From: an uncultured Gammaproteobacteria bacterium
Lineage (GTDB): Bacteria; Patescibacteriota; Patescibacteriia; UBA1558; 2-01-FULL-52-15
Assembly: GCA_964441335.1 (NCBI GenBank)
Contig: CAYTUI010000001.1
Span: 961 to 64,960, forward strand
Length of the DNA: 64,000 bases
Direction of reading: 5' to 3'
Both the position numbers and the translations under genes were made by a program. The notes beneath the pieces were generated by a model. It searched no databases. It saw only the letters and a program-made list of their open reading frames with translations, and had not been told where the DNA came from. Of this stretch, positions 27,280 to 44,913 are shown in pieces. Position 1 is the stretch's first letter; each line of letters opens with the position of its first letter.

Positions 27280-27439
27280 TCTGTTTTAAACATATATAAG
27301 TCAGAGTAGTGCGAGGTTGAAGCTTTTTAGCGTTTTTAACTGCCTGTTTTAAACATTTATAACGCCGCCAACCGGGTCATTGACAAATTTTTGGAGTAGC
27401 GTTACTATGTGTATATAATACAGTAAGTAATCCACAGGT

Positions 27440-28114
27440 ATGACAGTTAATAGAAAATATGAATTCGCCGTAATTGCTACCGACATTGCTATTTTCGCCG
27501 TAATTGATGGTAAATTACAGGTATTAATGATTGAGATGGTGAAACCACCTTTTACCGGTCAGTGGGCTTTACCGGGCGGACTGATAAAAATCACAGAGAC
27601 CGTTGAAAATGCGGCTAAGCGCACTTTGCTGGAAAAGACTGGCGTCCAGGATGTTTATCTGGAGCAGCTCTTTACTTTTGGTGAGGTTAACCGTGATCCT
27701 TTTGGGAGAGTGGTATCGGTAGCTTATTTTGTTTTAATTTCTGATCCAACCAAGTTAAAACTAAAGGCCGGACGAGAATATAGAAATATAGGCTGGAAAT
27801 CAGTTGATCGGTTGCCTGTTTTGGCTTACGATCACAAGAAAATAGTAGCGGTAGCTATTGAGCGTTTACGATCTAAATTATCTTATACTAATATTGTTTA
27901 TGGTCTATTGCCGAAAGAATTTACTTTAACAGAATTCCAAAGTCTATATGAATTAATTTTAGATCAGCAGTTTGATAAAAGAAATTTCCGTAAAAAAATG
28001 TTGTCATTAGGACTAATAAAGAAGTCAGGACGAAAACAGAGTGGAGTGGCTAACCGACCAGCCAACCTTTTTTCCTTTTCCAGCCGCTCCCCAAAAGTAG
28101 TAGAAATATTATAA
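27440..28114 (+). CDS. nrtR: NrtR-type regulator: Nudix-like ADP-ribose-binding domain fused to C-terminal winged helix
   Basis: Degenerate Nudix fold (QWALPGG...E....AAKR.L.EKTG) plus ~90-aa C-terminal domain; sits directly upstream of pnuC-nadR. A paralog lies at 40501. Confidence 0.7.
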   Translation: MTVNRKYEFAVIATDIAIFAVIDGKLQVLMIEMVKPPFTGQWALPGGLIKITETVENAAKRTLLEKTGVQDVYLEQLFTFGEVNRDPFGRVVSVAYFVLISDPTKLKLKAGREYRNIGWKSVDRLPVLAYDHKKIVAVAIERLRSKLSYTNIVYGLLPKEFTLTEFQSLYELILDQQFDKRNFRKKMLSLGLIKKSGRKQSGVANRPANLFSFSSRSPKVVEIL

Positions 28115-28162
28115 TTTTTTTTAATTAAAGATAGTGTAAATTTTACAATAAATAATAAAGCC

Positions 28163-28741
28163 ATGAGTACATATGAAATTATAGCGGTAGTCTTTGGTCT
28201 AATCTCGGTCTATCTGACTACCAGTCAAAATATTTGGAGTTGGCCAACAGGCTTAGTCAGCGTAGTAGCTTTTGGCTTATTGTTTTTTGACATCAAGCTC
28301 TACGCTGATGTTATTCTGCAAGCCTTTTTCTTTGTTACGGGTTTATTGGGCTGGTATTGGTGGAAGTTTGGAGGAAAGAATAAAACTGAGCTCCAAGTTA
28401 AGTTGTTGAAATCCGTAAGCCGCTGGTGGATATTTCTGTCTATAATTCCTTGCCTTGCTTTGATGGGTTGGCTGTTGTCAAACTACACCGACGCCTCATT
28501 ACCCTATTGGGATTCTTTTATCAGTGTCGTCAGCATTTTTGCACAGTTATTACTGACCAAAAAAATTTTTGAAAATTGGATTCTTTGGATAGCGGTAGAT
28601 ATTGTGGCTATAGGAGTTTATAGTTTTAAAGAAGTTTATTTAACAACCGGTTTGTATGTCATATTTTTATGCTTAGCGACAGTCGGATTAATAAAGTGGT
28701 ATAGATCATGGCAACAGCAAAAAAAAATAACGATAGCATAG
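28163..28741 (+). CDS. pnuC: Nicotinamide riboside transporter PnuC
   Basis: PnuC-like TM protein; the WxxW signature appears in variant form GWYWWKF; adjacent to nadR. Confidence 0.8.
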   Translation: MSTYEIIAVVFGLISVYLTTSQNIWSWPTGLVSVVAFGLLFFDIKLYADVILQAFFFVTGLLGWYWWKFGGKNKTELQVKLLKSVSRWWIFLSIIPCLALMGWLLSNYTDASLPYWDSFISVVSIFAQLLLTKKIFENWILWIAVDIVAIGVYSFKEVYLTTGLYVIFLCLATVGLIKWYRSWQQQKKITIA

Positions 28742-29712
28742 GTTTGGTGCTGGGAAAGTTTGCCCCGCTGCACAAAGGCCATCAGCTGCTAATTGAAACC
28801 GCCCGCCGGGAAATGGATAGGGTTAAGGTGATGATTTATAACTGTCCCGAAACAACAAATATTCCGTTGAACGTACGTTCCGGCTGGATCAAAAAGCTTT
28901 ATCCCGATGTCGAGGTGATTGAAGCCTGGGACGGACCAACTGAAACAGGACGGGCGGCCTGGATAAAGAAAAAAAATGAGGATTATGTTCTTAAAAAAAT
29001 AAATGAACCAATTTCAGCCTTTTACAGTAGTGAGTGGTACGGGGACCATATGAGCAAATTCTTAAACTGCGCCAATATTATGGTTGATAGGCCTCGTCAA
29101 AATTTTAACGTTTCAGGCACTAGAGTAAGAAACAACTCCTATCGTTACAGAAAGTATTTAGACCCCATTGTTTACAATGACTATTTGATCTCAGTTGTTT
29201 TATTGGGCGCTGAATCTTCTGGTAAGACAACTTTAACAAAAGCTTTGGCAAAAAAGTACAAGACAGTTTGGCTGCCGGAATACGGTCGCGAGTATTGGGA
29301 GAAAAATCAGCAGAACGGTTTATTGACTCATAATCAGCTGGTTGAGTTAGCAATTGAACATCGTCACCGTGAGTATGAGTTGATTATGAAAGCTAAAATT
29401 TTTTTATTTATCGATACTAATGCCATGACCACAGCGCTGTTTGATGAATATTACCATGGAGAAATAGATAGTCGACTCCAGAAAATGGCCAACGAAGATG
29501 CCGAGAGGCAGAATATTTTTCTGCTCTGCGATATCGATATTCCTTATGAAGACGACGGTAGCCGTTCCGGCGCAGAACATAGGATCAAATTTGCCAGGCG
29601 GATAGAGGAGGATCTACAGGCCAAAAAAGTCTCTTATTATAAGATCAGGGGAACATTGGAACAGCGTTTAAAACAGGTTAAGAAAATTTTAAATAGGATT
29701 GACATTTATTAG
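28708..29712 (+). CDS. nadR: NadR-like bifunctional NMN adenylyltransferase / ribosylnicotinamide kinase
   Basis: HxGH-type nucleotidyltransferase motif (GKFAPLHKGH) and P-loop kinase motif (LLGAESSGKTTL). Confidence 0.85.
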   Translation: MATAKKNNDSIGLVLGKFAPLHKGHQLLIETARREMDRVKVMIYNCPETTNIPLNVRSGWIKKLYPDVEVIEAWDGPTETGRAAWIKKKNEDYVLKKINEPISAFYSSEWYGDHMSKFLNCANIMVDRPRQNFNVSGTRVRNNSYRYRKYLDPIVYNDYLISVVLLGAESSGKTTLTKALAKKYKTVWLPEYGREYWEKNQQNGLLTHNQLVELAIEHRHREYELIMKAKIFLFIDTNAMTTALFDEYYHGEIDSRLQKMANEDAERQNIFLLCDIDIPYEDDGSRSGAEHRIKFARRIEEDLQAKKVSYYKIRGTLEQRLKQVKKILNRIDIY

Positions 29713-29957
29713 ATGGCTAATATTAGCAAAAAAATCCATCAGAATATTTTCGATAAGTATCTAAAATAAGGATTTTTATCGAAGATCTGCTGATTAATCT
29801 TCCTGACTTGACAAAAATGGCTAATTTTAGTAAACTTGGCCGTTTACTGTCAGGTCTTGGCAGGTAAATTTTTTTGCTCTTTGTTAAGGAATTTAGCAGT
29901 TTTAAACGCAGACCTTTTGGTCATCAACCACTACCCAGAAACGAGGAGGTATAGGCT

Positions 29958-30875
29958 ATGAAGAAGCCTTTCGGTCTCTACGATCCGTCTTTGGTCGGGA
30001 TAAACTACAAGCCGCGTATTGAAGAAGCGCGGGCAGAGGGTCGCGCGGCAGGTCTCAGTGATGCCTCAACGGATACCTTCCGGACCATGCTGGCGCTGAT
30101 CGATTTCCAGCAGTGCTTCACACGTCCGGGTATGCCGCTGTGTGTACCGGGGGCCGTGGATGATATCCGACGGATCATCGCCTGGATTCTGACCCATCCG
30201 GAGGAGATCACGCGCGTTCTGATTACCCTGGATTCTCACAGCGCCTTGCAGGTCTTCACCCGCTGGTGGTGGAAACATCGTGACGGCTATCATCCGGATG
30301 ACTTTACCGATATCCTCACCGACCGTGTGGAATCTGGTATATGGATTCCGCAGGTGATGCCGAAGTGGTCGAGAACCTACCCGCGCCGTCTTGAAGAGAG
30401 CGGACAGGCTCCGCTCAAGATCTGGCCCCAGCACGGCGAGGTGGGTAGTGAGGGCTGGCAGTTGGACCCGGCGTTGATCGAGGTGATCGAGTGGCTGTGC
30501 GCCGCCCGCAACATTGCCCCCACCTATCTCTTCAAGGGCAATGTGCCGGAGTCCGAGTACTACGGAATTTTCCGTCCCTGCATTCTGGTGCCGACTCACC
30601 CGGATGGGGGATGGAACTATCCACTACTCAACTGGTTCCCGACCTTCGACCGCGTCATTGAAGCTGGTGAAGCGGAGGAATTCTGCGTTGGCGAATCCAT
30701 GAAACAGCAGATCGCTCACTACCGCGAGGTTGATCCCGAGGTTCTCAAGAAGATCGTCTTCTTGCGCGACTGCACCTCCACTGTTCTGCCTGAGAACCGA
30801 GGCCGAGCGGATGAGCTGCTGGACACGATGAAGCACGTGGGCATCCAGGTGTCTACCACAACTGAGTTGGTCTAG
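29958..30875 (+). CDS. Isochorismatase-family hydrolase (nicotinamidase PncA-like), GC-rich
   Basis: ALIDFQQCF..G.PLCVPGA pattern resembles the isochorismatase/PncA N-terminal catalytic-Asp region; later FCVGES Cys. First gene of the GC-rich NAD island. Confidence 0.55.
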   Translation: MKKPFGLYDPSLVGINYKPRIEEARAEGRAAGLSDASTDTFRTMLALIDFQQCFTRPGMPLCVPGAVDDIRRIIAWILTHPEEITRVLITLDSHSALQVFTRWWWKHRDGYHPDDFTDILTDRVESGIWIPQVMPKWSRTYPRRLEESGQAPLKIWPQHGEVGSEGWQLDPALIEVIEWLCAARNIAPTYLFKGNVPESEYYGIFRPCILVPTHPDGGWNYPLLNWFPTFDRVIEAGEAEEFCVGESMKQQIAHYREVDPEVLKKIVFLRDCTSTVLPENRGRADELLDTMKHVGIQVSTTTELV

Positions 30876-31060
30876 TTGCTGGCTGGTTGGCAGACTGCTT
30901 GGGATGTTAAGCCGGGCTTGTGGGAGGGTCACGTCAGTGACCCTCCCACACCTAATTTTTTAGAAACTTGTTCCCAACAATCGTTGGAGACAAATTTCTA
31001 ACCTTGATTTTTTTGAGGTTATGCACCTTTCCAAGTCAACAACAAACAAGGAGGTAGCCG

Positions 31061-32449
31061 ATGCCTAAGGTGGCGGTTTTCGGAGGCAGTTTCAATCCGC
31101 CGGGTCAGCATCATTTTCTGATCGTCAGGGAATTGTTAGAGCGGGGCGGCTTTAATCAAGTGATTGTAGTGCCCTGCGGCCCGCGGCCGGATAAATTGAC
31201 TACAAACGATATCGATTCTGTCTCCAGAGCCACTATGGTCGATCTGACTTTCCGCGGCCTGGCGAACGTTGAAGTCGACCTGTTCGATCTGGAGAACGGT
31301 ACCTTTACCAGAACTCACCAGCTGGACAAGCGCTATGGCCAACGAGGTGATCTCTGGCATGTGGTCGGCACTGATTTGATCAGTGGCGGAGCCGTCGGTC
31401 AGTCCCAGATTCAGCGAGTTTGGAAAAACGGATCGGAAATTTGGAGTAGCCTCCAGTTTCTGGTCCTGGTGCGCAACGGGTACAAGCTGAATCAGGCAGA
31501 TTTGCCGCCGCGCAGTCAGGTTCAGCAACTGGATCTGGACGGTGCCAGCTCGGATATTCGGACGGCAGCCATGAATCACCGGTCGTTGGCCGGACTGGTC
31601 AGACCGGAGGTAGCCAGCTACATCGAGCGTCATGAACTCTATCGCGGTTCCTGGCCGCGGCGGACCACTCGCTTGCGCCTGGTGCAACCGCAGATCCTGG
31701 TCTTTCACGATCAGCGCAATGAGCGTGCGGTGGAAGTTGCTGCCGCTTTGCGCCGCTGGGAGTCGGATGACCCGAATCTGGTGGTGGCCGTTGGTGGAGA
31801 TGGCACTATGCTGCGCGCCATTCATCAGCACTGGCAGAGACATTTACCGTTTATCGGTATCAATGTCGGACACCGGGGGTTTCTGCTGAATAACCTGGAA
31901 GGCGATCAGCTGGCGGAAGTGGTTTCACAGGGTCTGGAGGTCCATCGTTCGCCGCTGTTGTACGTTGAGACCGTTACCAATCAGGGAGCTGAGCAACGGT
32001 CTTTGGTGGCCAACGATGCTTGGGTGCAGTGTCAGCCTGGCACTACGGGCTGGTTGGAGGTAAAAATTGACGGTCAGGTTCGCCTGCCACGTCTGGTCTC
32101 CGACGGTGTTCTGGTTTCAACCGCCGCCGGTTCTACCGCTTATGCCAGAGCCATGGGAGCAACGCCCATACCGGTTGGCACGCCGGAGCTAGTCCTAGTC
32201 GGTAACAACGTTCTGGAACCACCCAACTGGCGCTCGGCCTACCTGCCGCTGGACTCGCTGATTCAAATCAGGAGTCTCGATCAGGCTAGGCCGACCAAAA
32301 GGCCGATTCTGGGCTTTGTGGACGGTTTGTCTCTGGGCGAGATTCGGCAGTTGGATATCCGCGCCAGTCGGATAGCGGCTATTGAGCTAGCTTTCTTGCC
32401 CGGTTATAACCTCGGACACAAGCTGGCCGAGATCCAATTCCCTTCCTAG
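31061..32449 (+). CDS. Fusion protein: N-terminal NMN/NaMN adenylyltransferase (NadD/NadM-like) plus C-terminal NAD kinase (NadK)
   Basis: N-term GGSFNPPGQHH (HxGH-class); C-term GGDGTML, GINVGHRGFL and DGVLVSTAAGSTAYARAMG NAD-kinase motifs. Confidence 0.8.
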   Translation: MPKVAVFGGSFNPPGQHHFLIVRELLERGGFNQVIVVPCGPRPDKLTTNDIDSVSRATMVDLTFRGLANVEVDLFDLENGTFTRTHQLDKRYGQRGDLWHVVGTDLISGGAVGQSQIQRVWKNGSEIWSSLQFLVLVRNGYKLNQADLPPRSQVQQLDLDGASSDIRTAAMNHRSLAGLVRPEVASYIERHELYRGSWPRRTTRLRLVQPQILVFHDQRNERAVEVAAALRRWESDDPNLVVAVGGDGTMLRAIHQHWQRHLPFIGINVGHRGFLLNNLEGDQLAEVVSQGLEVHRSPLLYVETVTNQGAEQRSLVANDAWVQCQPGTTGWLEVKIDGQVRLPRLVSDGVLVSTAAGSTAYARAMGATPIPVGTPELVLVGNNVLEPPNWRSAYLPLDSLIQIRSLDQARPTKRPILGFVDGLSLGEIRQLDIRASRIAAIELAFLPGYNLGHKLAEIQFPS

Positions 32450-32459
32450 TCGTTGAAAG

Positions 32460-32491
32460 CCGCAGGGACGAGCAGCAGCTCGTCCCTGCGG
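32460..32491 (+). terminator. Hairpin terminator CCGCAGGGACGAGC-AGC-AGCTCGTCCCTGCGG
   Basis: 14-bp perfect stem; followed by AT-rich spacer with a second palindrome CCTTGTTTCAAACAAGG. Confidence 0.55.
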
Positions 32492-32600
32492 ACCCAATTT
32501 TGAAATAAAGAATTGCCAGTTTTATAAGTTGTCAGTTCCTTGTTTCAAACAAGGCCAAGTTCTTTGTAAATCTAAGAGATCAAAACCAAGGAGGAAAAAC

Positions 32601-33188
32601 GTGGAACGTACGGTGATTCATAGCGGTTTTTTGCAGCTGGAAGTTGTGGCAACACCACAGGGCCAGAGGGAGCTGGTGCGTACCACTGATTCTCTTTGCC
32701 TGTTGATTTTCGATCAGCTACGCAATCGGCTGATCTTAGTTCGACAGCCGCGGCCTTCACAGATGTCTGAACTCAATCCCGATAGTCCCCTGGCCAATCG
32801 CGAGGGGCTGATCACCGAGTGCTGCGCCGGCCGTTTCGACGGTCGGTATTCTCCGCTGGAGTTGGCGGTCAAGGAAGCCGAGGAGGAAACTGGTATTCAG
32901 GTCAATCCGGAGAATGTCGAGCTGCTGAACGGCGGGCGGCCCATGGCTGTGTCCGCCGGGGTCATCACGGAGTTATCCTATCTGGCGTACGTGAGGATCA
33001 CTTCAGATACCTCCGGTCTCGACCAGAAGTTGCACGGTCGGGCAGATGAGGGTGAGGAGATTCGTCTGGTCAGTCTGGACGCGGATCCTCGTTATCTGCA
33101 GGTGTACTTGGGCGGAGCTTGTCAGGACATTCGTGTCTTCACTCTGCTGCAGTATCATCTCAACAAGATGGAATGTCAGGTGTCCTGA
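32601..33188 (+). CDS. NUDIX hydrolase, ADP-ribose pyrophosphatase-like (start GTG at 32601 after AAGGAGG)
   Basis: Nudix box AGRFDGRYSPLELAVKEAEEETGI; strong SD 7 nt upstream of GTG. ORF track lists 32529..33188. Confidence 0.7.
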   Translation: MERTVIHSGFLQLEVVATPQGQRELVRTTDSLCLLIFDQLRNRLILVRQPRPSQMSELNPDSPLANREGLITECCAGRFDGRYSPLELAVKEAEEETGIQVNPENVELLNGGRPMAVSAGVITELSYLAYVRITSDTSGLDQKLHGRADEGEEIRLVSLDADPRYLQVYLGGACQDIRVFTLLQYHLNKMECQVS

Positions 33189-33212
33189 CAGTTTCCAGGA
33201 GAGGAGTTTTCA

Positions 33213-34838
33213 GTGAGGAGTCTGTATCAAATCGTTCAGCAGATGTTTCCCCTGCAGCGTCTACCCTGGGATGAGTACTTCGCGGCCATGGCGCAGTCCG
33301 ACTTCAAGCTCGGGCGGCACCAGATTCCGGCCACCAAGTCATTCTTTATCAGGTCGGCGCCGTTTGGCGGATCGTTTGCGCTGCTGGGCGGTATTACCGA
33401 AGCCCTACGAACCATCAACGAGTTGCGCTTTGACGCAGATTTCCGGGCGATCATGGAGGAATTCGGCTACGAAGCCGATTTCCTGGACTGGTTGCAATCG
33501 GAAGAACGGTTGAAGGTTCAGGTCTACGCGCCGCCGGAAGGCAGCGTTTTCTTCCCCAGCGAGCCCGTGGTCACTTTTCGTGGGCCGTTGGCGCACATTC
33601 GGCTGGTCGAAGGCATGATGATTGAGGCGCTGAACTTCTCTACCTTGTCACTGACCAAATGGCAGCGACTGGTCAGGGTGGTGCGCCCCGGCTCTGTGTT
33701 GGAGTTCGCTCGTCGGCGATCGCAGCATCATCTCCGATCCTCGCTTTACGGTTTGCTGGCCGGTTGCCGGCAGATCAGCAACAGCGAAGCGGCCCGTCTG
33801 ATCGGCGTAAAGCCGGTCGGTACCATGGGTCATGAGTGGATGCAGTCGTTCGGCGATGTCCGCGAGGCCTTCGATGCCTGGCTCAAGGTCAATCCGCATA
33901 AGCCTGTTGGCTTGGTGGATACCTTGCAGTGTCTGGAGATCGATTTTCCGGCTTGGCTGGAGGCGGTCTACGAGCAGCGCGAGGTTGTAAAGGCCGCTGA
34001 CAGTCCGATCTGGGGCTGGCGCAACGATTCGGGTGACCTTGCCTACCTGACTATTGAGCAGTACATTCGCTTTTGGAAGCATCTGCTGTCTCAGGATCAG
34101 TGGTTTGCCGACCGCATGCACATTGTGCTGACCAACGATCTGGATGAGTACTCTTCGGAGGAAATCATCCAGCAGATTCGTAGCCAGGCCGGAGCCGCCG
34201 GTTTGGATGCCGAGGATCTGCTCCGACGGATCATTTGGGCGGCCGGTACCAAGCCGGGCACCTGCTATGATCAGCCGGCTTTGGGCGGCGTAGCCAAGCT
34301 GATGGAAGTCGATGGTCATGGCTGCATCAAGCTGGCTTTCGATGCCGACGGTAATCCGGGCGCCAAGACCTCGATTCCGGGGTTCAATCGCTCAGCGCTG
34401 ATCCGCGATCGTGATTCCGGTGAAGTTCACTGCCTGTTGATCTATCCGGCCGAGGACACTACTTTCCATCTGTTTGAGCATGATGGAGAAGGTTACTTCG
34501 GTGACGGGCGGAAGGGAGACGCTTGGGAGACCATTACCGCACATCATCCGGACACGCCCGGTTCGGAGCTGCACATCAAGAACTATCTGGTTCAGGGACG
34601 ACAGCAGCTGGTCTTTGATACGATCGATCAGAACGGCCTGACCGACGAGTGGATAGAGGACACTGTACAGTCGGTGGCTGAACGGGTTGTGAGGGAAATT
34701 GATTCCCTGCACTGGACTGTCAGCCGTCTCCGCAAGCCTCATCGGGTCAAGGTCTCTGTCACAGAAGGTCTGTTTGAGCAGCGGACGAATCTGATTCGTA
34801 CCCGCTGTCTGCGAACGGACAAGATGTGGAAGCAGTAG
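33213..34838 (+). CDS. pncB: Nicotinate phosphoribosyltransferase (PncB/NAPRT family, long form)
   Basis: N-terminal DEYFAAMAQ...SFFIRSAPFGGSFALLGGI..AL..L.ELRF and VYAPPEGSVFFPSEPVVTFRGPLAHIRLVE..MIEALNF.TL match type II PRTase NAPRTase conservation. Confidence 0.75.
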   Translation: MRSLYQIVQQMFPLQRLPWDEYFAAMAQSDFKLGRHQIPATKSFFIRSAPFGGSFALLGGITEALRTINELRFDADFRAIMEEFGYEADFLDWLQSEERLKVQVYAPPEGSVFFPSEPVVTFRGPLAHIRLVEGMMIEALNFSTLSLTKWQRLVRVVRPGSVLEFARRRSQHHLRSSLYGLLAGCRQISNSEAARLIGVKPVGTMGHEWMQSFGDVREAFDAWLKVNPHKPVGLVDTLQCLEIDFPAWLEAVYEQREVVKAADSPIWGWRNDSGDLAYLTIEQYIRFWKHLLSQDQWFADRMHIVLTNDLDEYSSEEIIQQIRSQAGAAGLDAEDLLRRIIWAAGTKPGTCYDQPALGGVAKLMEVDGHGCIKLAFDADGNPGAKTSIPGFNRSALIRDRDSGEVHCLLIYPAEDTTFHLFEHDGEGYFGDGRKGDAWETITAHHPDTPGSELHIKNYLVQGRQQLVFDTIDQNGLTDEWIEDTVQSVAERVVREIDSLHWTVSRLRKPHRVKVSVTEGLFEQRTNLIRTRCLRTDKMWKQ

Positions 34839-34970
34839 AGCTGCTACAAGCCGGTGGTCACCAGCAGGTGACCACCGGCCCTTACTTCAGCCTTGTCATA
34901 AAGAAAATGAAAGGGTTGAAGAGAGGCTAGTTCATTCAATGTCTATTCTAAAACCAAGGAGGTGCTCTAA

Positions 34971-35927
34971 ATGAGTTCTGCTCAGCCGATCGCTCACGGT
35001 AGCGGTCAAATGGGGGCGCAGTCTATCTCCATTCAGGTATCCACGCGGGAGCGTTGCAACGCCGGTTGTCGTTTTTGCATTTCGCGAACAACGCCGGGAG
35101 TGGAAACACCGGGCAATCCTCATGAAGTTAAGTTCTGCGATGAGCCGCGTCTGCAGGTCGGGTTGAACTATGCCCGGCAGTTGGGTGCGACGCATGCTAT
35201 CCTGACATCACGAGCTGATCCTTCGCAGGAGGACCCAAGGTATCTGCACCGACTGATCAGTACCAGTCGTCAGTTCTTGCCGCTAGTGGACATGCATACC
35301 AATGGTTTTCTTTGGCTGCCTGGTAAGCCGCAAGCCGATGATCTGTCTATACTGGTGGTTTCGGGTCTGACCATGCTTACTCTGTCGATCGCTTCTTTCG
35401 ATCAAAATCAGAATAGAGAGCTGATGATGATCCGCGAAAGCGGTGCCGGTTTGATCCGTCGGGCTCGGGATTTGGGTCTGCTGGTCCGCTGCTCTTTGGT
35501 TGTCAATTCCCAGGGAGTCAACGATTACCAGGGGGTTATCAACTACATCAAACAGGCCGGCAACCTGGGAGCCCACATGGTGGTCGTTAGAGAAGTCTGG
35601 CGACCGGAAGTGTATGGCGATTTCCAGCCCGAAGTGCTGGACTGGAACAACTGCAACTGGGTGGATATCGGTCCGATCCAGAGTCAGTTTATCCAGGCCG
35701 CCGGCCAGAGGGACAACCCTTACGGCTTGCAGCTTCGTGACCCCTTGCCCTGGGGCACACCGGTTATGGTGATGGGCGGAGTGTTCGACGACCCCAATCA
35801 TGGGGTCAATATCACTTTCGCTCGTTGCGAGGAGGGTACCAGGGGCTCGACCATTAAGAGCATCGTCCATAAGCCCGATGGTCACGGTTATCGCAACTGG
35901 GATCACAACGGCGATATCCTCTACTGA
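34971..35927 (+). CDS. Radical SAM domain protein (CX3CX2C)
   Basis: RERCNAGCRFCISRT cluster-binding motif near N-terminus; no further family assignment possible by eye. Confidence 0.6.
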   Translation: MSSAQPIAHGSGQMGAQSISIQVSTRERCNAGCRFCISRTTPGVETPGNPHEVKFCDEPRLQVGLNYARQLGATHAILTSRADPSQEDPRYLHRLISTSRQFLPLVDMHTNGFLWLPGKPQADDLSILVVSGLTMLTLSIASFDQNQNRELMMIRESGAGLIRRARDLGLLVRCSLVVNSQGVNDYQGVINYIKQAGNLGAHMVVVREVWRPEVYGDFQPEVLDWNNCNWVDIGPIQSQFIQAAGQRDNPYGLQLRDPLPWGTPVMVMGGVFDDPNHGVNITFARCEEGTRGSTIKSIVHKPDGHGYRNWDHNGDILY

Positions 35928-36057
35928 TTAGGTGGAGGACGGGGCATCTGCGTCGGCGCAGATGCCCCCTTTCCCGAGGTCTTATCATCTATAGATAAGG
36001 TCTTAGGAGAGTTCAGTTCTTTAACACGCAACCATCTAAAACCAAGGAGGAGAGGGA

Positions 36058-38082
36058 ATGCTAAAGTCCGAACAGTTTATGGACGTTCGACAGCATGGGT
36101 TTATCCGTTTGGCCGTGATTGTACCCAGAGTTCATTTGGGCAATGTACCGGCAAACGTGGCTGAACATCTGATGAAGATCAGCGAGGTTCGCAGACAAGG
36201 CGCCAGTTATATAGTGGCTCCTGAGTTGAGTCTGACCGGCTACTCCAACGGCGATCTGTTTCATTCACAGGCACTGCTGGAAGCGGCCGTGATCGGTTTG
36301 GGCGAGTTGCTGGAGGCAACGGCAGCCTGGCCGCAGATCATCTCGGTCGGCCTGCCCCTGCTGGTGGACGGCGCGGTCTACAACTGTGCTGTGACCATTC
36401 ATCGGGGCGTTATTCTGGCGGTGGTGCCTAAGGCCTATCCGCCGGAGTATCGCGAGTTTTATGAGCAGCGGCACTTCGCCTCGGCCTATGAGGCTCAGTC
36501 CACTGTTATCAACCTGCTGGGTCAGACAGCTGCTTTCGGAACCGACATTTTGTTGGTTTCGGATCACAACCCGCGTCTGACGATTCACACCGAGGTCTGC
36601 GAAGATCTTTGGGTGCCGATTCCGCCCAGCACTGAGGCGGCTCTAGCTGGCGCAACGGTGCTGGCCAACCTGTCGGCTTCCAATATCACCATCGGTAAGA
36701 GCGGATATCGGGAGCTGTTGGTGGCCGGATCGTCAGCCAAGAATCTGGCTGTGCAGATGTACAGCGCGGCAGGTTTCGGTGAGTCCACGACTGACCTGTC
36801 CTGGGACGGGGAAGCCCTGATCGCCGAGCGTGGCGAAATTCTGGTCAGGGGTCAGCGTTTCAGCCTTGACGGCGGCACTTCAGTTGTGGCCGACGTGGAT
36901 CTGGAGCTGTTGGCACTGGAACGCGCCAGGCAGAATTCCTTCAGGTCAAACGCCAGTCAGCATCCCCGTAAGTTCCGGCGCATCCTGATTACTGGACAGT
37001 TATCTGATGCTGTTCAGGACGGGCTGGAGCAGGTGCATCACAAGTTGCACCGCTTCGTGGATCCGCATCCCTTCGTGCCTAGCGACCAGTCTCAGCGCGA
37101 TGAGCGCTGTCGGGAAACTTTCCTGATTCAGGCAACGGCTTTGGCCAGACGGCTGGAACAGCTGCCACAGGATCGTCGGCACGTGGTGGTGGGTATTTCC
37201 GGTGGACAGGATTCAACGCACGCGCTCAACGTGGCGGTCCATGCTATGGATCTCATGAAGATGCCGCGTCGCAACATCCTGGCGGTAACCATGCCGGGGT
37301 TCGGCACAACCGACCTGACAAAGAACAATGCCGTGGCATTGGTCAAAGCGGTCGGCGCTGAACTGCTGGTGATTCCCGTTAGTGAACTGTCGCTCCTGAT
37401 GTTCCAAAACATCGGGCATAATCCGGATGAGCACGACCTGACCTACGAGAACGTTCAGGCTTGGGCCCGGATGTATACGGAGCTGTCATTAGCTGCCGAG
37501 AAAGGAGGGTTGGTACTGGGGACTGGTGACTTGTCGGAGCTGATGCTTGGCTGGTGTACTTACCTGGGTGATCACGCCAGTCATTATGGTATCAACGCCG
37601 GTGTGCCCAAGACTCTTATTTCCTATCTGATCGCCTGGACCGCAGAGCAGGTCTATGGAGAGAAGGAACCGGAAGTTAGGGGTATTCTGCAGAGCATTCT
37701 GGTAACTCCGATATCACCGGAGCTCTTACCACCGGCGGCTGACGGTTCTATAGCGCAGAGAACGGAAGACAAGGTTGGACCATATGAGCTGCATGATTTC
37801 TTCGGTTATTACTTCGTTCGCTTTGGTTTCAGCCCCAAGCGCATCGTGCGTCTGGCATTGGCTGCCTTTGGCGACAAGTACTCCATCGGAGAGATCAAGT
37901 CTTGGTTCAGGCTCTTCCTGACTCGTTTCTTCCGGAATCAGTTCAAGCGATCTTGTTTGCCCGATGGTCCCAAGGTAGGTCTGACGTGCATCTCGCCTCG
38001 CGGTGACTGGCGGATGCCCTCGGATGCTGACCCGACTGTTTGGCTTCAGGATCTGGAGCTGGTACCGGACAACCTCAACTAG
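36058..38082 (+). CDS. nadE: Glutamine-dependent NAD+ synthetase NadE (nitrilase-like glutaminase domain plus NAD synthetase domain)
   Basis: N-terminal CN-hydrolase fold (IVAPELSLTGY, ...CEDLW); C-terminal PP-loop VVGISGGQDST and long 674-aa architecture like actinobacterial NadE. Confidence 0.9.
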   Translation: MLKSEQFMDVRQHGFIRLAVIVPRVHLGNVPANVAEHLMKISEVRRQGASYIVAPELSLTGYSNGDLFHSQALLEAAVIGLGELLEATAAWPQIISVGLPLLVDGAVYNCAVTIHRGVILAVVPKAYPPEYREFYEQRHFASAYEAQSTVINLLGQTAAFGTDILLVSDHNPRLTIHTEVCEDLWVPIPPSTEAALAGATVLANLSASNITIGKSGYRELLVAGSSAKNLAVQMYSAAGFGESTTDLSWDGEALIAERGEILVRGQRFSLDGGTSVVADVDLELLALERARQNSFRSNASQHPRKFRRILITGQLSDAVQDGLEQVHHKLHRFVDPHPFVPSDQSQRDERCRETFLIQATALARRLEQLPQDRRHVVVGISGGQDSTHALNVAVHAMDLMKMPRRNILAVTMPGFGTTDLTKNNAVALVKAVGAELLVIPVSELSLLMFQNIGHNPDEHDLTYENVQAWARMYTELSLAAEKGGLVLGTGDLSELMLGWCTYLGDHASHYGINAGVPKTLISYLIAWTAEQVYGEKEPEVRGILQSILVTPISPELLPPAADGSIAQRTEDKVGPYELHDFFGYYFVRFGFSPKRIVRLALAAFGDKYSIGEIKSWFRLFLTRFFRNQFKRSCLPDGPKVGLTCISPRGDWRMPSDADPTVWLQDLELVPDNLN

Positions 38083-38088
38083 AGGTTT

Positions 38089-38131
38089 GACCCCGCCCCA
38101 ACACTTTTGTGTCATGGGCGGGGTCTTTTTT
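38089..38131 (+). terminator. Rho-independent terminator closing the GC-rich NAD island
   Basis: GACCCCGCCC-loop-GGGCGGGGTC followed by TTTTTT. Confidence 0.7.
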
Positions 38132-40132: not shown

Positions 40133-40208
40133 CGGGGTGTGGCGCAGTTGGTAGCGCGCATGCATGGGGTGCATGAGGCCGTGGGTTCAAGTCCCGCCAC
40201 CCCGACCA
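40133..40208 (+). tRNA. tRNA-Pro (anticodon GGG), CCA encoded
   Basis: CGGGGTG-TG-GCGC AGTTGGTA GCGC, anticodon stem CATGC/GCATG with loop ATGGGGT, T-arm GTGGG-TTCAAGT-CCCGC, 3' CACCCCGACCA. Confidence 0.8.
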
Positions 40209-40369
40209 AGTGATTCTGAAAAAATTCACAGGAGATGTAGTTGCGGGTTTCGCCCAAAGGGCGACCCGGTCGAATGACCGGGCAAGTCCTGTCACCCCGA
40301 CCATTCGACTTTGTTCAGCTTAGCTTGACCAAGAAAATTATATAACAATATTAAATCTCGTTTGATGGA

Positions 40370-40444
40370 TCCGCGGTAGCTCAGTGGTAGAGCAGCTGAC
40401 TGTTAATCAGCGGGTCGTCGGTTCGAACCCGACCCGCGGAGCCA
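40370..40444 (+). tRNA. tRNA-Asn (anticodon GUU), CCA encoded
   Basis: TCCGCGG-TA-GCTC AGTGGTA GAGC, anticodon loop CTGTTAA, T-arm GTCGG-TTCGAAC-CCGAC, 3' CCGCGGAGCCA. Confidence 0.85.
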
Positions 40445-40500: not shown

Positions 40501-41202
40501 ATGAAGTGTAAATATAACACTAGAAATATGACTCGACCTAAAAGTATTGACGTTAAAAAATTAAAGTTTGCTATTATTGCTGTTGATGTGGCTGTCTTTC
40601 GGATTAACAACGGGATTTTAGAAGTGTTGCTGGGGGAGGTTATGAATCCTCACTTTAGAAACAGACCTGGTCTGATCGGTGGAGTTATCGAGACAACCGA
40701 AACAGCCGAGCAGGCAGTTGTTAATCATTTAAAAAATAAGACGGGCGTCAAAGTTGATTTTATTGAACAACTTCAGACATTTAGTAGAATTGACAGGGAT
40801 CCCCGCGGTCGCGTTTTGTCGGTTGCCTATTTGGCTATTATCAATAAGATAAGCCCTGTCGGAGGAAATATTAGAACCGTTTGGGTTCCAATTAACCAGG
40901 CCAAAAATTTAGCCTATGACCACGATGAAATATTGCGGGTAGCTGGTGAAAGACTGCGGGCTAAATTTGGTTATACTAATATTGCCCAGCATTTTTTACC
41001 GTTGAATTTTACTTTAACCGAACTGCAACAGGTTTATCAGATTGTTATGAATCAAACTATAGACAAGAGGAATTTTAGACGTAAAGTATTGAATGTCGGT
41101 TTAGTAGCACCGACCGGCAGAACAACGACTAAAGGCACCAAGAAACCTGCGCAACTGTTCAGATTCGCATCGTTGAAGCCAAAAATCATTGAACTGTTTT
41201 AA
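40501..41202 (+). CDS. Second NrtR-like regulator (Nudix-like domain plus C-terminal wHTH), paralog of 27440..28114
   Basis: Same architecture and alignable motifs (GG.IE..E.....V...L..KTGV, AYDH..I...A.ERLR.K..YTNI, FTLTELQ.VY..I....DKRNFR.KVL..GL). Confidence 0.7.
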   Translation: MKCKYNTRNMTRPKSIDVKKLKFAIIAVDVAVFRINNGILEVLLGEVMNPHFRNRPGLIGGVIETTETAEQAVVNHLKNKTGVKVDFIEQLQTFSRIDRDPRGRVLSVAYLAIINKISPVGGNIRTVWVPINQAKNLAYDHDEILRVAGERLRAKFGYTNIAQHFLPLNFTLTELQQVYQIVMNQTIDKRNFRRKVLNVGLVAPTGRTTTKGTKKPAQLFRFASLKPKIIELF

Positions 41203-41418
41203 TTTATCAGGGCGATATTTTTTTGCTTGTGAATAAGTGTCTACTTGACACTTATTTTGATTGTTGCTAAGGTAGAGGCAGAGGAGAAAGTGGACAACTA
41301 TTTAAGGGATTGACAAAATTCTATAAATATTGTAGGTTCACCAACTCTGTTTCTTTGACAATTTATAAGATATTTATAGTGAAATGGCCAAGAAACCTTG
41401 AAAGGAGGTGGACGACCA

Positions 41419-42245
41419 TGATTGTGAAACACGGAGACCGGCAATTCGAAGCCGGTCGTCTGGTGGCCGATAACGGCCGTTATCGCCAGTATCTCTGCGT
41501 GGAGATTGGCGCTGACAAGGAAAAGGAGTGTTTGTTGCAGATCGCCACCGCTACCAATGGTAACGGTCAACTCGATCGGGCAGCCTACTTCCTTCAGGAA
41601 CTTGAGCGTCGAGCTCGCGAAGTGGAGAAGGAGTTCAAGAAGGTCAGAACCGATCCCAAGGTGATGCTCAATTACGGGCTGGGCTTTCCCAAGCTGGTTG
41701 ACAGCTTCGTCTGTCAGGAGCAGGGCGGCCGCCGTATCAACATCCTGGCTTTCAGACGCGTTGATCAGGTTGGTCAGATGATCCCTTTGAGTAGTGTGAT
41801 CAAAAGCAACCTGATGATTGACCGTCGTACTAGCGTCTGGATTCTGGGAAAGCTTCTCAAGCTGTTGACTTTTAGTCACAGTGAAGGGATTGCTGTCGGA
41901 CGCCTGGACGCTGACAACATTCTGCTTCAGCCGAATCAGCACTACGTGGTGTTGTTTGACTGGTCGGAAGGAAGTCAGTATCCGGAAAAAGTGCCTGCGG
42001 AAATCGCCTGTCAGGAGATCACTCAAGCTGCCATATCAGTTATGGCCGCCCTGTACTATGATCCGGAGTCTGGGAAATTCCCTGACGATCCGGATGATCC
42101 TGACGATCGTTATGTCAAGCACCTGATGACTCTGGCTAAAGGTCAGGAGCATCGGGCGGATCAGGCTCACCAGGAATTCTACAAACTGGTTGACACTATC
42201 TGGGAAAGGAGATTCTACCCCTTTACGACTCGACCGAAGTTCTGA
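41419..42245 (+). CDS. APH/ChoK-like (aminoglycoside-phosphotransferase-fold) small-molecule kinase-like protein, GC-rich
   Basis: Catalytic-loop-like GRLDADNILL and metal-binding VVLFDWSEG (IDWE-type) motifs; start ATG 41419 after AAAGGAGG. ORF track lists 41310..42245. Confidence 0.5.
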
Positions 42246-42288
42246 AGCTACGCTACGTTAGACCAACGAAAGAAGGAGGACGAGTACT

Positions 42289-43452
42289 ATGGGACGCGAT
42301 ACCTTGTCTCGTGATGCCTTTACCAGAGTCAGCTCGTTGGCGACGAGGGGTGGCAGGAAAGCCACTCACGATGCTGAAGAGCAAGTCAGACAAGGCAAGG
42401 GTATTGATCCCCTTGTTGATCCGAAAGGGCCGTCTCATCTCGGTCCGATTCGTAGGTCGCTGCCGCGTTTTGAGAAGCAGAAGTCGCTTTGGCGATTGGT
42501 GATGAACATGCCGATGGCCGAGGAGACCCTGCTGGATACGACCGGTTCTATGCAACAAAACGTGGAGCTGGCGTTCGCGGCGTTGCCGAAGTCGTTCGGG
42601 ATGTACACCGAAGGATCTTGTCCGGTACTGGGTAGATACGATGTCCAGATCGCCACCGGAATCTTCAACGACGTCGACGATCTTGATGCAAATCCGTATG
42701 CCCAGGTCCTGTGTCGTTCGCAGTTTGAAATGGGCGAGAAGATCGCCTTGCAGATGACTCGGATGATCCCGGGACGCAACGGCTGCGGCAACTTCAAGGA
42801 GGATTCACAGTTTGGGCTGTTCGGAGCCGCCTATCTGACGGATGCCAGGATCACGAAGTACGGCCTCAGGACCTATCATTTCACGGTGTCGGACGAGCCG
42901 ACCGTGGAAACGATCGAACTGGGCTGGCTGAAGAAGATCTTCGGCGACGACGTGCTGGAGCGAACGGCCGAGAACGGCTGGGACTTCACCGCGCGTACTC
43001 TGCCGGACACGGCGCAGGCAGTTCGTGACCTGCAGACGCGGGCTCACGCCTTCTTTCTGCAAGTTCCGGGTTGGCATGATGAACGCAGGGTCACGAATCA
43101 GTGGACCGAGCTTTACGGCCCGGCTCATTTCGTGATGCTGCCCGGCGGGACTGAGTATGTGCACGCTGTCAAGGGCTGCATCATCGGTCTGACCGAGGGT
43201 GTTATCAGTCTCTCGTCGGCCAAGGACTTCCTGCGCGAGCATGGGGTTCCGGCTGACGCGGCTGCCAAAATCGTCCGCGCAGTCGCGCATATTCCTCTGG
43301 CAGCGCAGACCCTGGCTCCGAACTTCGACAAGCTGCCGAAGGTTGGGGATCTCTTCAAGGAAAAGACCGACCTCTGGCCGGTTGATCCCCAAGAGGTGCC
43401 GGAAGCGACTGTTGAAGACAAGGACAAGGGCGAGGAGACCGAGTGGCTGTAG
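42289..43452 (+). CDS. von Willebrand factor A (vWA) domain protein, TerY-like
   Basis: MIDAS motif LLDTTGSM after a ~70-aa N-terminal extension; strong SD GAAGGAGGA. Confidence 0.55.
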   Translation: MGRDTLSRDAFTRVSSLATRGGRKATHDAEEQVRQGKGIDPLVDPKGPSHLGPIRRSLPRFEKQKSLWRLVMNMPMAEETLLDTTGSMQQNVELAFAALPKSFGMYTEGSCPVLGRYDVQIATGIFNDVDDLDANPYAQVLCRSQFEMGEKIALQMTRMIPGRNGCGNFKEDSQFGLFGAAYLTDARITKYGLRTYHFTVSDEPTVETIELGWLKKIFGDDVLERTAENGWDFTARTLPDTAQAVRDLQTRAHAFFLQVPGWHDERRVTNQWTELYGPAHFVMLPGGTEYVHAVKGCIIGLTEGVISLSSAKDFLREHGVPADAAAKIVRAVAHIPLAAQTLAPNFDKLPKVGDLFKEKTDLWPVDPQEVPEATVEDKDKGEETEWL

Positions 43453-43498
43453 CTCCTTAACCTGACAACCGTAAATCCTAAACCAAAGAGAGGTGACT

Positions 43499-44884: not shown

Positions 44885-44913
44885 ATGCGTGAACGCGAAA
44901 GGAGATAGTGCAG

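What the first reader, a model, noticed from the sequence alone, without database searches (positions are those of the whole stretch)
34971..35927. Radical-SAM enzyme of unknown function embedded in the NAD salvage island
CNAGCRFC (CX3CX2C) occurs at residues 29-36, in a 318-aa protein that shares the island's RBS leader. Radical SAM chemistry has no role in canonical Preiss-Handler salvage. Its placement between pncB and nadE suggests an unrecognised cofactor-related step or a co-transferred accessory, for example a prokaryotic-viperin-like or nucleotide-modifying enzyme.
Basis: partly seen in the sequence, partly recalled or inferred. Interest (0 to 1): 0.55.

Follow-up and report, generated by a model that had tools for sequence, protein, structure and literature searches.

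The report
Uncharacterised radical SAM enzyme in NAD operons
This gene encodes a real but unstudied iron-sulfur "radical SAM" enzyme that sits inside the NAD (vitamin B3 cofactor) gene clusters of ultra-small bacteria and archaea, which suggests a step of NAD metabolism that nobody has described.

Summary

The main result is the context. All 25 loci of its own clade (47-70% identity) carry NAD genes within 10 kb (pncB, nadD/nadK, nadE, NrtR, Nudix, pncA). A far larger out-clade (~1,600 clusters, 25-35% identity, other CPR lineages and DPANN archaea) is also in NAD clusters: 31 of 44 surveyed metagenome loci, 12 of 19 loci on contigs catalogued as viral, and all 3 hand-checked contexts. That out-clade is often coupled to, and once fused with, an unannotated PLP enzyme.

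No paper in the searched library describes the family. The chemistry is unknown. My best inference is a MoaA/viperin-style attack on a phosphorylated ribosyl or pyridine nucleotide. It is a strong, testable lead.

The parts
34971..35927 (+). Radical SAM protein, 318 aa. The core barrel spans about residues 15-210 and a family-specific C-terminal beta domain spans about residues 250-318.
35055..35078 (+). Codons for C29-N-A-G-C33-R-F-C36, the CX3CX2C motif that would ligate the SAM-binding [4Fe-4S] cluster
   Evidence: sequence; C29, C33 and C36 are invariant in alignments A1 and A2
34951..34962 (+). AAACCAAGGAGG ribosome-binding leader, shared with the Nudix gene and nadE of the island
   Evidence: intergenic sequences
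34851..34878 (+). GC-rich hairpin (CCGGTGGTCACC-AGCA-GGTGACCACCGG) after pncB. It has no T tract, so it is not a canonical terminator.
   Evidence: sequence; not listed by the terminator scan
35941..35968 (+). GC-rich hairpin (GGGGCATCTGCG-TCGG-CGCAGATGCCCC) after the radical SAM gene
   Evidence: sequence
29808..29836 (+). The only sigma-70-like promoter match near the head of the island (TTGACA-17-TAAACT), upstream of the first island gene
   Evidence: consensus scan only
29958..30875 (+). 305-aa divergent isochorismatase-like hydrolase (candidate nicotinamidase or another amidase), the first gene of the GC-rich island
   Evidence: weak PDB match to 3hu5, E=0.037; homologues recur in NAD clusters and overlap the radical SAM start in L034
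31061..32449 (+). NadD-NadK fusion (NaMN adenylyltransferase plus NAD kinase)
   Evidence: Pfam and NCBIfam
32529..33188 (+). Nudix hydrolase of the YffH/AdpP (ADP-ribose pyrophosphatase-like) type. The true start is probably 32601 (195 aa, as called in public assemblies).
33213..34838 (+). Nicotinate phosphoribosyltransferase family protein (541 aa, divergent and long)
   Evidence: Pfam NAPRTase_N/C; NF006695 255 bits, below its cutoff of 469
36058..38082 (+). Glutamine-dependent NAD synthetase NadE
   Evidence: NF002730, 824 bits against a cutoff of 473
27440..29712 (+). Low-GC native NAD module: NrtR regulator (27440-28114), PnuC (28163-28741) and NadR-like NMNAT/ribosylnicotinamide kinase (28708-29712)
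   Evidence: Pfam; GC 0.39
40501..41202 (+). Second NrtR-family regulator, downstream of the island
   Evidence: Pfam NrtR_WHD plus NUDIX

Best explanation
The gene encodes a functional, SAM-cleaving [4Fe-4S] radical enzyme. It is a dedicated accessory of the NAD salvage and recycling operons of CPR bacteria and DPANN archaea, many of which sit next to an NrtR regulator gene. SHOWN: the cluster-binding motif and the radical SAM fold; a family-specific C-terminal domain; strict sequence conservation; a persistent position among pncA, pncB, nadD, nadK, nadE, Nudix ADP-ribose-pyrophosphatase-like genes, ADP-ribosylglycohydrolase, prs and NrtR across two domains of life; and coupling or fusion with a PLP enzyme in the larger sister clade. 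INFERRED: it acts on a small, phosphate-bearing ribosyl or pyridine-nucleotide substrate, with NaMN/NMN, NaAD/NAD(P), ADP-ribose and a ribose bisphosphate as candidates, in the manner of its closest structural relatives MoaA (GTP) and viperin (CTP). In this scheme the reduced cluster cleaves SAM, and the 5'-deoxyadenosyl radical abstracts a ribose hydrogen. Conserved basic residues (R/K81, R173, R207, K296, R308, plus His75/109/300/305) would hold the phosphates. The nearly invariant Cys286 in the C-terminal domain is a candidate hydrogen-atom donor to quench the product radical. The altered product would then go to the partner encoded beside it: a HisC/CobD-like PLP enzyme in the out-clade, or a fructose-2,6-bisphosphatase-like His_Phos_1 phosphatase or Nudix hydrolase in this clade. 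Its parts would re-enter the Preiss-Handler route ending at NadE. The precise reaction is not known.
For: NAD linkage, own clade: 25 of 25 non-redundant loci have at least one NAD gene within 10 kb (pncB 19, nadD/K 17, nadE 17, Nudix 14, NrtR 12, pncA 10, His_Phos_1 10, prs 7, ARH 7), with Pfam-annotated gene maps.
NAD linkage, out-clade: a 41%-identity relative is in an NAD cluster; so were the three contexts I picked to check, from Parcubacteria, Nanoarchaeia and an unnamed source; so are 31 of 44 metagenome loci with at least 4 kb of flank and 12 of 19 loci on IMG/VR contigs. The loci without NAD genes show no alternative recurrent context. The neighbouring NadE and NAPRTase proteins are bona fide.
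Partner: a PLP enzyme gene lies directly downstream in 18 loci, carries a PLP lysine motif, and P0249 is a radical SAM plus PLP fusion scoring 349 bits.
Anionic substrate: R173 aligns with MoaA K163, T110 with T102 and H75 with K69 (alignment). That those MoaA residues bind GTP is from my memory of the MoaA structure papers, not tested here.
Other: no SPASM/twitch cysteines and no recurrent small-peptide gene. No literature on the family was found.
Against: No substrate is identified, and canonical NAD metabolism has no gap that needs radical chemistry. The clusters often already hold every known step, including nadA, nadB and nadC in some. About 30% of out-clade loci show no NAD gene within the sequence available. 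Overlapping start and stop codons occur with whichever gene happens to be adjacent (His_Phos_1, pncA, nadE, the isochorismatase-like gene, the PLP gene), so coupling is weak evidence for specific partners; only the fusion is strong. I found no NrtR operator directly upstream of the gene. The substrate-binding inference rests on sequence alignment to MoaA and on recalled residue roles, not on a docked model. The loci are phylogenetically related, so the counts are not independent events.
Confidence: 0.5

Rival explanations
1. Precursor-forming enzyme. Together with the PLP partner where present, the radical SAM enzyme makes or liberates the pyridine base (nicotinate or nicotinamide) from an unconventional precursor, which then enters via PncA and PncB. 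This could be a salvage lyase, analogous to radical SAM queuine lyase, or an oxygen-independent de novo ring-forming step.
Against: The window's clade lacks the PLP partner altogether. The gene co-occurs with complete nadA/nadB/nadC sets in several loci, so it is not a substitute for de novo synthesis. The nearest folds act on nucleotides, not on amino acids or bases. I can name no candidate precursor.
Confidence: 0.2
2. Protein maturase or activase. The enzyme installs a radical or a post-translational modification on one of the NAD enzymes, such as NadE or the unusually long NAPRTase, or on a glycyl-radical protein.
Against: No glycyl-radical enzyme gene occurs in any locus. The window protein gave no PflA or NrdG match in NCBIfam, and out-clade members scored about 20-35 bits against cutoffs of 126-375. 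There is no SPASM/twitch domain. The neighbouring NadE and NAPRTase types vary (short or long NadE; 397-541 aa NAPRTase) while the radical SAM protein stays constant. Fusion to a PLP enzyme points to small-molecule chemistry.
Confidence: 0.1
3. Viperin-like antiviral or conflict enzyme. It converts a nucleotide into a chain terminator or toxic analogue and merely travels with a mobile NAD island.
For: Viperin is among the closest folds. Out-clade members give weak pVip hits of 15-43 bits. The island is compositionally foreign in this window, and the gene is more GC-rich than its surroundings in 24 of 24 loci. Relatives occur on contigs catalogued as viral.
Against: The window's clade gives no PADLOC hit and no hit to the NCBIfam viperin model. 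I saw no kinase, defence or phage genes alongside it. The context is metabolic and stable across two domains of life. The 'viral' contigs carry the same NAD operons, and one is identical in length to a metagenome contig, so they look like cellular genome fragments.
Confidence: 0.04
4. Misplaced housekeeping MoaA (molybdenum cofactor synthesis), as some automatic annotations name it.
For: JGI's automatic name for several homologues is 'molybdenum cofactor biosynthesis enzyme MoaA'. MoaA is the best sequence-profile hit in the PDB.
Against: The window protein gave no TIGR02666 (moaA) match in NCBIfam, and out-clade members score 25-43 bits against a cutoff of 284. There are no C-terminal auxiliary-cluster cysteines and no Gly-Gly tail: the protein ends ...NGDILY and only C286 is conserved in the C-terminal part. 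No moaC, moaB or moaE gene appears in any locus.
Confidence: 0.02

Closest known systems
MoaA (GTP 3',8-cyclase, radical SAM; PDB 1tv7/2fb2)
   Different: Only 16% identity. It has no second [4Fe-4S] cluster site, no C-terminal Gly-Gly, and a different C-terminal domain with its own motifs (PLPWG, HGVNxTFAxC, KSIVHKPDGHGYRNWDHNGDILY). It is never found next to Moco genes and fails the curated MoaA model.
Viperin / prokaryotic viperins (CTP, UTP or GTP to ddh-nucleotide; PDB 5vsl, 6q2p, 9dfn)
   Different: 14-18% identity. The window's clade gives no hit to the pVip or NF038283 models. The context is metabolic (NAD operon), not defence. The C-terminal motifs differ.
Queuine lyase (radical SAM enzyme of queuosine-precursor salvage; PDB 6p78)
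   Same: A functional analogy only: a radical SAM enzyme embedded in a micronutrient salvage pathway.
Radical SAM enzymes that work with PLP or a PLP partner (lysine 2,3-aminomutase, PDB 2a5h; BtrN with its aminotransferase, recalled from memory)
   Same: The sister clade is coupled or fused to a fold-type I PLP enzyme. The only NCBIfam hit of the window protein is a faint aminomutase-like one (15 bits).

Membership tests
Radical SAM superfamily (PF04055) | CX3CX2C motif supplying three Cys to a [4Fe-4S] cluster | tested here: met
   C29, C33 and C36 are present and invariant in 58 clade members and in 17 superfamily members
Radical SAM superfamily (PF04055) | Partial (beta/alpha)6 TIM-barrel fold | tested here: met
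Radical SAM superfamily (PF04055) | Score above the Pfam gathering threshold | tested here: not met
   21 bits against 29.5 for the window protein. Most homologues and all tested out-clade members but one (P0155, 26 bits) pass, so this reflects divergence, not non-membership
Radical SAM superfamily (PF04055) | Reductive cleavage of SAM to the 5'-deoxyadenosyl radical | not testable with these tools
   Needs anaerobic biochemistry. SAM-motif equivalents (ADPxQE in place of GGE, TNG, SxxS) are visible in the alignment
MoaA (GTP 3',8-cyclase) | C-terminal auxiliary [4Fe-4S] cluster (three further Cys) that binds GTP | tested here: not met
   Only C286 is conserved in the C-terminal half. C56 is the only other near-invariant Cys
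MoaA (GTP 3',8-cyclase) | Curated model TIGR02666 above its cutoff (284 bits), and genomic association with moaC, moaD or moaE | tested here: not met
   No hit for the window protein. Out-clade members score 25-43 bits. No Moco genes appear in the gene maps I read
Viperin / pVip | Match to curated viperin models (NF038283, cutoff 180; PADLOC pVip) | tested here: not met
   No hit for the window protein or two clade members. Out-clade members score 15-43 bits over the core only
Viperin / pVip | Defence-island or nucleotide-kinase context | tested here: not met
   The neighbours are NAD metabolic genes
Viperin / pVip | Dehydration of CTP, UTP or GTP to a ddh-nucleotide | not testable with these tools
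   Needs an enzymatic assay
Glycyl-radical enzyme activases (PflA/NrdG) | Cognate glycyl-radical enzyme encoded nearby, and a match to the PflA or NrdG models | tested here: not met
QueE / HemW-HemN | Fold and sequence similarity to these subfamilies | tested here: not met
NrtR-linked NAD gene cluster (membership by context) | Conserved co-localisation with NAD salvage or biosynthesis genes and an NrtR gene | tested here: met
   25 of 25 clade loci have NAD genes and 12 of 25 have NrtR within 10 kb. In the out-clade, 31 of 44 have NAD genes and 15 of 44 have NrtR. NrtR is divergent and immediately upstream in L025, L027 and L029
NrtR-linked NAD gene cluster (membership by context) | NrtR operator upstream of the gene or its operon | tested here: inconclusive
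   The candidate palindrome TGTTTTAAACA is exact only upstream of NrtR1. Degenerate copies lie at 29665, 29898 and 32541, and none lies directly before the radical SAM gene. The overall count is only marginally above chance

The most novel reading that the evidence does not exclude
NAD metabolism in the ultra-small symbiotic prokaryotes (CPR bacteria and DPANN archaea) includes an enzymatic step unknown from model organisms. It would be catalysed by this radical SAM family, in most lineages together with a dedicated PLP enzyme. It could be an oxygen-independent radical transformation of a pyridine nucleotide, of ADP-ribose or of a precursor, serving salvage, repair, or synthesis of a modified nicotinamide cofactor.
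Probability: 0.45. Interest if true: 0.85.

Novelty: new variant of a known kind. Interest (0 to 1): 0.72.

Why it matters
NAD biosynthesis and salvage are generally regarded as enzymatically complete, and no radical SAM enzyme has a place in them. This family is large: about 155 clusters in the window's clade and about 1,600 in the sister clade, at 90% identity. Its conserved home is the NAD operon of two huge, poorly understood radiations of organisms that live by scavenging cofactors from hosts. If it performs a real NAD-related reaction, that would add a new step, and possibly a new metabolite, to a central pathway. It would also explain part of how CPR and DPANN cells maintain NAD, and it would extend radical SAM chemistry on nucleotides beyond MoaA and viperin. 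The protein is small, has a single cluster and is predicted with high confidence. The candidate substrates are commercially available, so the question can be tested directly.

Tried and rejected
1. Direct sequence searches gave nothing useful. Single-sequence phmmer against the PDB found no hit, and NCBIfam gave only a 15-bit aminomutase-like hit.
2. A megablast of the island against phage genomes found no match.
3. The Foldseek AFDB50 library was not available.
4. An NrtR operator search with TGTTTTAAACA gave no site at the gene, and the overall count was barely above shuffled sequence.
5. Rfam found only tRNAs in the window and no riboswitch in the island.
6. The promoter and terminator scan placed no promoter in front of the gene. 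Most post-gene hairpins lack T tracts.
7. The roughly 30% of out-clade loci without NAD genes show no recurrent alternative context.
8. Long relatives (430-860 aa) with an N-terminal aminotransferase-like domain are not the same PLP family as the operon partner, because only P0249 matches its HMM. I did not use them as evidence.
9. Seven literature searches and one paper look-up found no description of the family.
10. I considered and set aside the following ideas:
- Replacement of NadA, NadB or NadC: the gene co-occurs with them.
- An ammonia supplier for NadE: there is no correlation with short or long NadE.
- A quinolinate decarboxylase: the substrate has no abstractable sp3 hydrogen.
- A cobamide-loop role suggested by the CobC/CobD-like partners: there is no cobT, cobS or cobU in any locus, and the resemblance is only at family level.

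Full report
**Observation**

The ORF at 34971-35927 (+) is real. It starts with ATG and encodes 318 aa, with CNAGCRFC at residues 29-36 (nt 35055-35078). It lies between a NAPRTase-family gene (33213-34838) and a glutamine-dependent NAD synthetase gene (36058-38082; NF002730, 824 bits against a cutoff of 473). The leader AAACCAAGGAGG precedes this gene, the Nudix gene and nadE.

The surrounding block, 29958-38082, has 56% GC, against about 40% on both sides, and the boundaries are sharp. It encodes, in order:
- a divergent isochorismatase-like protein;
- a NadD-NadK fusion;
- a YffH/AdpP-type Nudix hydrolase;
- the NAPRTase;
- the radical SAM protein;
- NadE.

To its left is a low-GC NrtR-PnuC-NadR module. 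To its right are two tRNA genes and a second NrtR gene. The only promoter-like site near the island is at 29808-29836, before its first gene. Each island gene is followed by a GC-rich hairpin, mostly without a T tract. The genome is a groundwater Patescibacteria (CPR) genome, and identical copies of the protein occur on several groundwater metagenome contigs.

**What the protein is**

Direct annotation is nearly empty:
- Pfam Radical_SAM scores 21 bits, below its threshold of 29.5.
- NCBIfam gives only a 15-bit hit.
- Single-sequence search of the PDB finds nothing.

Homologues are plentiful and well conserved: 155 clusters, and the 120 listed are all at least 47% identical. In a 58-sequence alignment, 31 positions are invariant. 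They include C29, C33, C36, Q86-E87, D107, H109-T110-N111, R173, S175, R207, W210, P212, L259-P260-W261-G262 and W310. C56, C286 and a C-terminal tail KSIVHKPDGHGYRNWDHNGDILY are nearly invariant.

AlphaFold2 run on this alignment gives a confident model (pLDDT 92.0, pTM 0.90) of six beta/alpha repeats followed by a four-stranded C-terminal domain.

| Search | Nearest solved relatives |
|---|---|
| Foldseek | MoaA and viperins first (TM about 0.5-0.63) |
| Profile vs PDB | MoaA E=3e-5 with the clade profile and 6e-11 with the superfamily profile; viperins 4e-9 |

Identity to all of these is only 13-18%. The protein is therefore a true radical SAM enzyme in the MoaA/viperin neighbourhood of the superfamily, but it belongs to neither family:
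- It lacks MoaA's auxiliary-cluster cysteines and Gly-Gly tail.
- It gives no match to the curated MoaA or viperin models or to the PADLOC pVip models.
- It has no SPASM/twitch cysteines.
- It is never next to Moco, defence or glycyl-radical enzyme genes.

**Neighbourhood of the window's own clade**

A scan of one genome per species (GTDB) returned 24 loci. Their record titles name Uhrbacteria, Falkowbacteria, Komeilibacteria, Buchananbacteria and Parcubacteria; eight TPA MAG records carry other labels ('uncultured Gammaproteobacteria', seven records; 'uncultured Candidatus Saccharibacteria', one), which I did not verify. I ran tblastn with NAD-pathway proteins on 25 non-redundant loci, including the window. 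Every locus has at least one NAD gene within 10 kb:

| Gene | Loci (of 25) |
|---|---|
| pncB | 19 |
| nadD/nadK | 17 |
| nadE | 17 |
| ADP-ribose-pyrophosphatase-like Nudix | 14 |
| NrtR | 12 |
| pncA | 10 |
| His_Phos_1 phosphatase | 10 |
| prs | 7 |
| ADP-ribosylglycohydrolase | 7 |

SLOG/LSDAT pairs and NDT-like genes also occur, and Pfam-annotated gene maps confirm the picture. Gene order varies:
- nadE is immediately downstream in 8 loci.
- The His_Phos_1 gene is immediately upstream in 9.
- The Nudix gene is immediately upstream in 5.
- In L025, L027 and L029 the gene stands next to a divergently transcribed NrtR.

The association therefore survives rearrangement.

**The family is much larger, and the link to NAD extends to archaea**

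A profile search of 1.84 billion representative proteins found 1,422 relatives at E≤1e-3 and 625 at E≤1e-10. Most are 285-300 aa and match end to end. They keep S20, the three Cys, T41, T79, T110-N111, R173, W225 and W310, and nearly always R207, G262, C286 and P302. They have GEP where the window's clade has ADPxQE, and they lack C56. None has a curated family. A search with their profile gave 1,588 clusters. Where sources name them, the names are Parcubacteria, Pacebacteria, Nanoarchaeota and Nanoarchaeia, always as plain 'radical SAM protein' or an automatic 'MoaA'.

Their contexts are again NAD clusters:
- A 41%-identity relative sits with SLOG x2, ARH, nadD-nadK, Nudix and a 541-aa NAPRTase.
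- Parcubacteria locus: NrtR-nadB-nadA-nadE-rSAM-nadK-Nudix-NAPRTase-pncA.
- Nanoarchaeia locus: pncB-like, pncA, rSAM, PLP enzyme, nadE, NDT-Nudix, pnuC, nadR, nadA, nadC-nadB.
- A third lineage has the gene overlapping nadE by 4 nt.

In a survey of 80 metagenome loci, 31 of the 44 with at least 4 kb of flank carry NAD genes (pncB 20, pncA 19, nadE 19, nadD 16, NrtR 15). The remainder show no alternative recurrent context. Nineteen relatives lie on large contigs catalogued as viral, and 12 of these show the same operons. At least one of those contigs has the same length as a metagenome contig already surveyed, so they look like cellular genome fragments. Some operons are minimal, for example pncA-rSAM-pncB-nadD-nadE, or NrtR-rSAM-pncB-pncA-nadE-Nudix-ARH-nadD. 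The adjacent NadE and NAPRTase proteins pass or approach their curated cutoffs.

**Partners**

In the out-clade, the commonest immediate neighbour is a gene of about 300-315 aa directly downstream, seen in 18 loci and often with overlapping stop and start codons. It encodes a fold-type I PLP enzyme with an SxSKPFG lysine motif and an SNPSxRxGN motif. Its nearest solved relative is histidinol-phosphate aminotransferase, and only weakly (E=0.007). The family has about 800 clusters, in DPANN archaea, Microgenomates and other CPR lineages, all unannotated. P0249 is a natural fusion: radical SAM residues 20-292 followed by this PLP domain at residues 307-657, scoring 349 bits. The window has no such gene.

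In the window's clade, the frequent upstream partner is a His_Phos_1 phosphatase closest to fructose-2,6-bisphosphatase domains (E=8e-12). These are phosphatases of furanose sugar phosphates. Overlaps occur with whichever gene is adjacent, so only the fusion is strong evidence of a functional partnership.

**Mechanism: what is shown and what is inferred**

Shown:
- a SAM-type cluster site and the radical SAM fold;
- a conserved family-specific C-terminal domain;
- membership of NAD operons.

Inferred: a small, anionic nucleotide or ribosyl-phosphate substrate. The grounds are as follows.
1. Several of the closest folds, including MoaA, viperin and BlsE, act on nucleotides or nucleosides.
2. 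Many conserved basic residues lie at the C-terminal ends of the barrel strands and in the C-terminal domain (R/K81, R173, R207, K296, R308, several His).
3. R173, T110 and H75 align with MoaA K163, T102 and K69. I recall these as GTP ligands, but I did not test that here.
4. There is no peptide-maturase hallmark.
5. The partners (PLP enzyme, sugar-phosphate phosphatase, Nudix) are small-molecule enzymes.

The nearly invariant C286 could return a hydrogen atom to a product radical. That would fit a redox-neutral isomerisation, epimerisation or dehydration without a second cluster. What the reaction is for remains open, because the clusters already encode every canonical step. I put the general explanation at about 0.5 and any specific reaction well below that.

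Rivals:

| Rival | Confidence | Main evidence |
|---|---|---|
| Enzyme that forms or frees the pyridine base | 0.2 | For: the minimal five-gene operons and the PLP fusion. Against: co-occurrence with nadABC, and no PLP partner in the window's clade |
| Maturase of a cluster protein | 0.1 | Against: no glycyl-radical enzyme nearby, and fusion to a PLP enzyme |
| Viperin-like conflict enzyme | 0.04 | Against: no pVip hit and no defence context |
| True MoaA | 0.02 | Against: fails the MoaA model and lacks the auxiliary cluster site |

**Novelty**

Seven full-text searches and one paper look-up found no description of a radical SAM enzyme in NAD operons or in the NrtR regulon. No curated model exists for the family. 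It is a new functional family inside a known superfamily, with an unexpected and very consistent pathway context.

Caveats:
- The loci are phylogenetically related, so the counts are not independent events.
- About 30% of out-clade loci show no NAD gene in the sequence available.
- Regulon membership by operator is unproven.
- Nothing here identifies the substrate.

Noticed in passing
window 41418-46083: A second GC-rich block (GC 0.58) lies directly after the second NrtR gene. It encodes two unknown proteins (275 and 387 aa), a divergent adenylosuccinate-synthetase-like protein (43493-44884; PF00709, 110 bits) and a 391-aa unknown. PurA-like genes also sit beside the NAD clusters of L008 (33% identity) and L037, so this may be another unrecognised NAD-linked function.
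   Followed up: partly
window 29958-30875; L034 804-1733; L035; L024; L027; L031; L087; L089; L132: The first island gene encodes a very divergent isochorismatase-like hydrolase with no Pfam hit (PDB 3hu5, E=0.037). It recurs in NAD clusters, sometimes alongside a canonical PncA (L031), and in L034 it overlaps the radical SAM start. It may not be a simple nicotinamidase.
   Followed up: partly
window 30919-30950, about 32460-32491, 34851-34878, 35941-35968, about 38086-38125: Every gene of the GC-rich island is followed by its own perfect GC-rich hairpin and then a spacer of about 70-100 nt with a near-identical AAACCAAGGAGG leader. This is an unusually regular, cassette-like organisation. I do not know whether the hairpins act as terminators, stabilisers or processing sites.
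   Followed up: no
window 27282-27292 and 27345-27355: CTGTTTTAAACAT[A/T]TATAA occurs twice, 63 bp apart, just upstream of NrtR1, and these are the only exact copies in 64 kb. It is a candidate NrtR operator. One-mismatch copies lie at 29665, 32541 and 38367.
   Followed up: partly
core-clade loci L005-L033: The radical SAM gene is more GC-rich than its 10-20 kb locus in all 24 loci checked, by 1.5 to 14 points. This suggests either repeated horizontal movement of these NAD clusters among CPR lineages or a strong compositional constraint.
   Followed up: partly
L121-L139 (IMG/VR contigs): Contigs of 19-416 kb catalogued as viral carry the same NAD operons. L125's contig has exactly the length (190,284 bp) of the metagenome contig of L082. 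They are probably CPR or DPANN genome fragments, or host regions around prophages, rather than phages.
   Followed up: partly
L038 7863-8798; L055, L064, L068, L074, L076 and others; P0249: A family of short (about 300-315 aa) fold-type I PLP enzymes, about 800 clusters in DPANN and CPR, has no functional annotation. It is almost always directly downstream of the out-clade radical SAM gene and is fused to it in P0249.
   Followed up: yes
L031 9174-10004; L032 9186-10004; L033 9180-9986: A His_Phos_1 phosphatase, closest to fructose-2,6-bisphosphatase domains, lies immediately upstream of the radical SAM gene in 9 of 25 core-clade loci. It is a candidate phosphatase for ribose-1,5-bisphosphate, ADP-ribose-phosphate or NADP. 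The window lacks it.
   Followed up: partly
window 31061-32449: NadD (NaMN adenylyltransferase) and NadK (NAD kinase) are fused into one 462-aa protein. The same fusion is seen in many CPR loci (L005, L006, L008, L009, L022-L024, L028, L031, L034).
   Followed up: no
window 40133-40208 and 40370-40444: tRNA-Pro(GGG) and tRNA-Asn(GTT) lie between the GC-rich NAD island and NrtR2. Between them, at about 40210-40330, is a stretch resembling part of a tRNA that was not called as a gene. This could be an integration scar.
   Followed up: no
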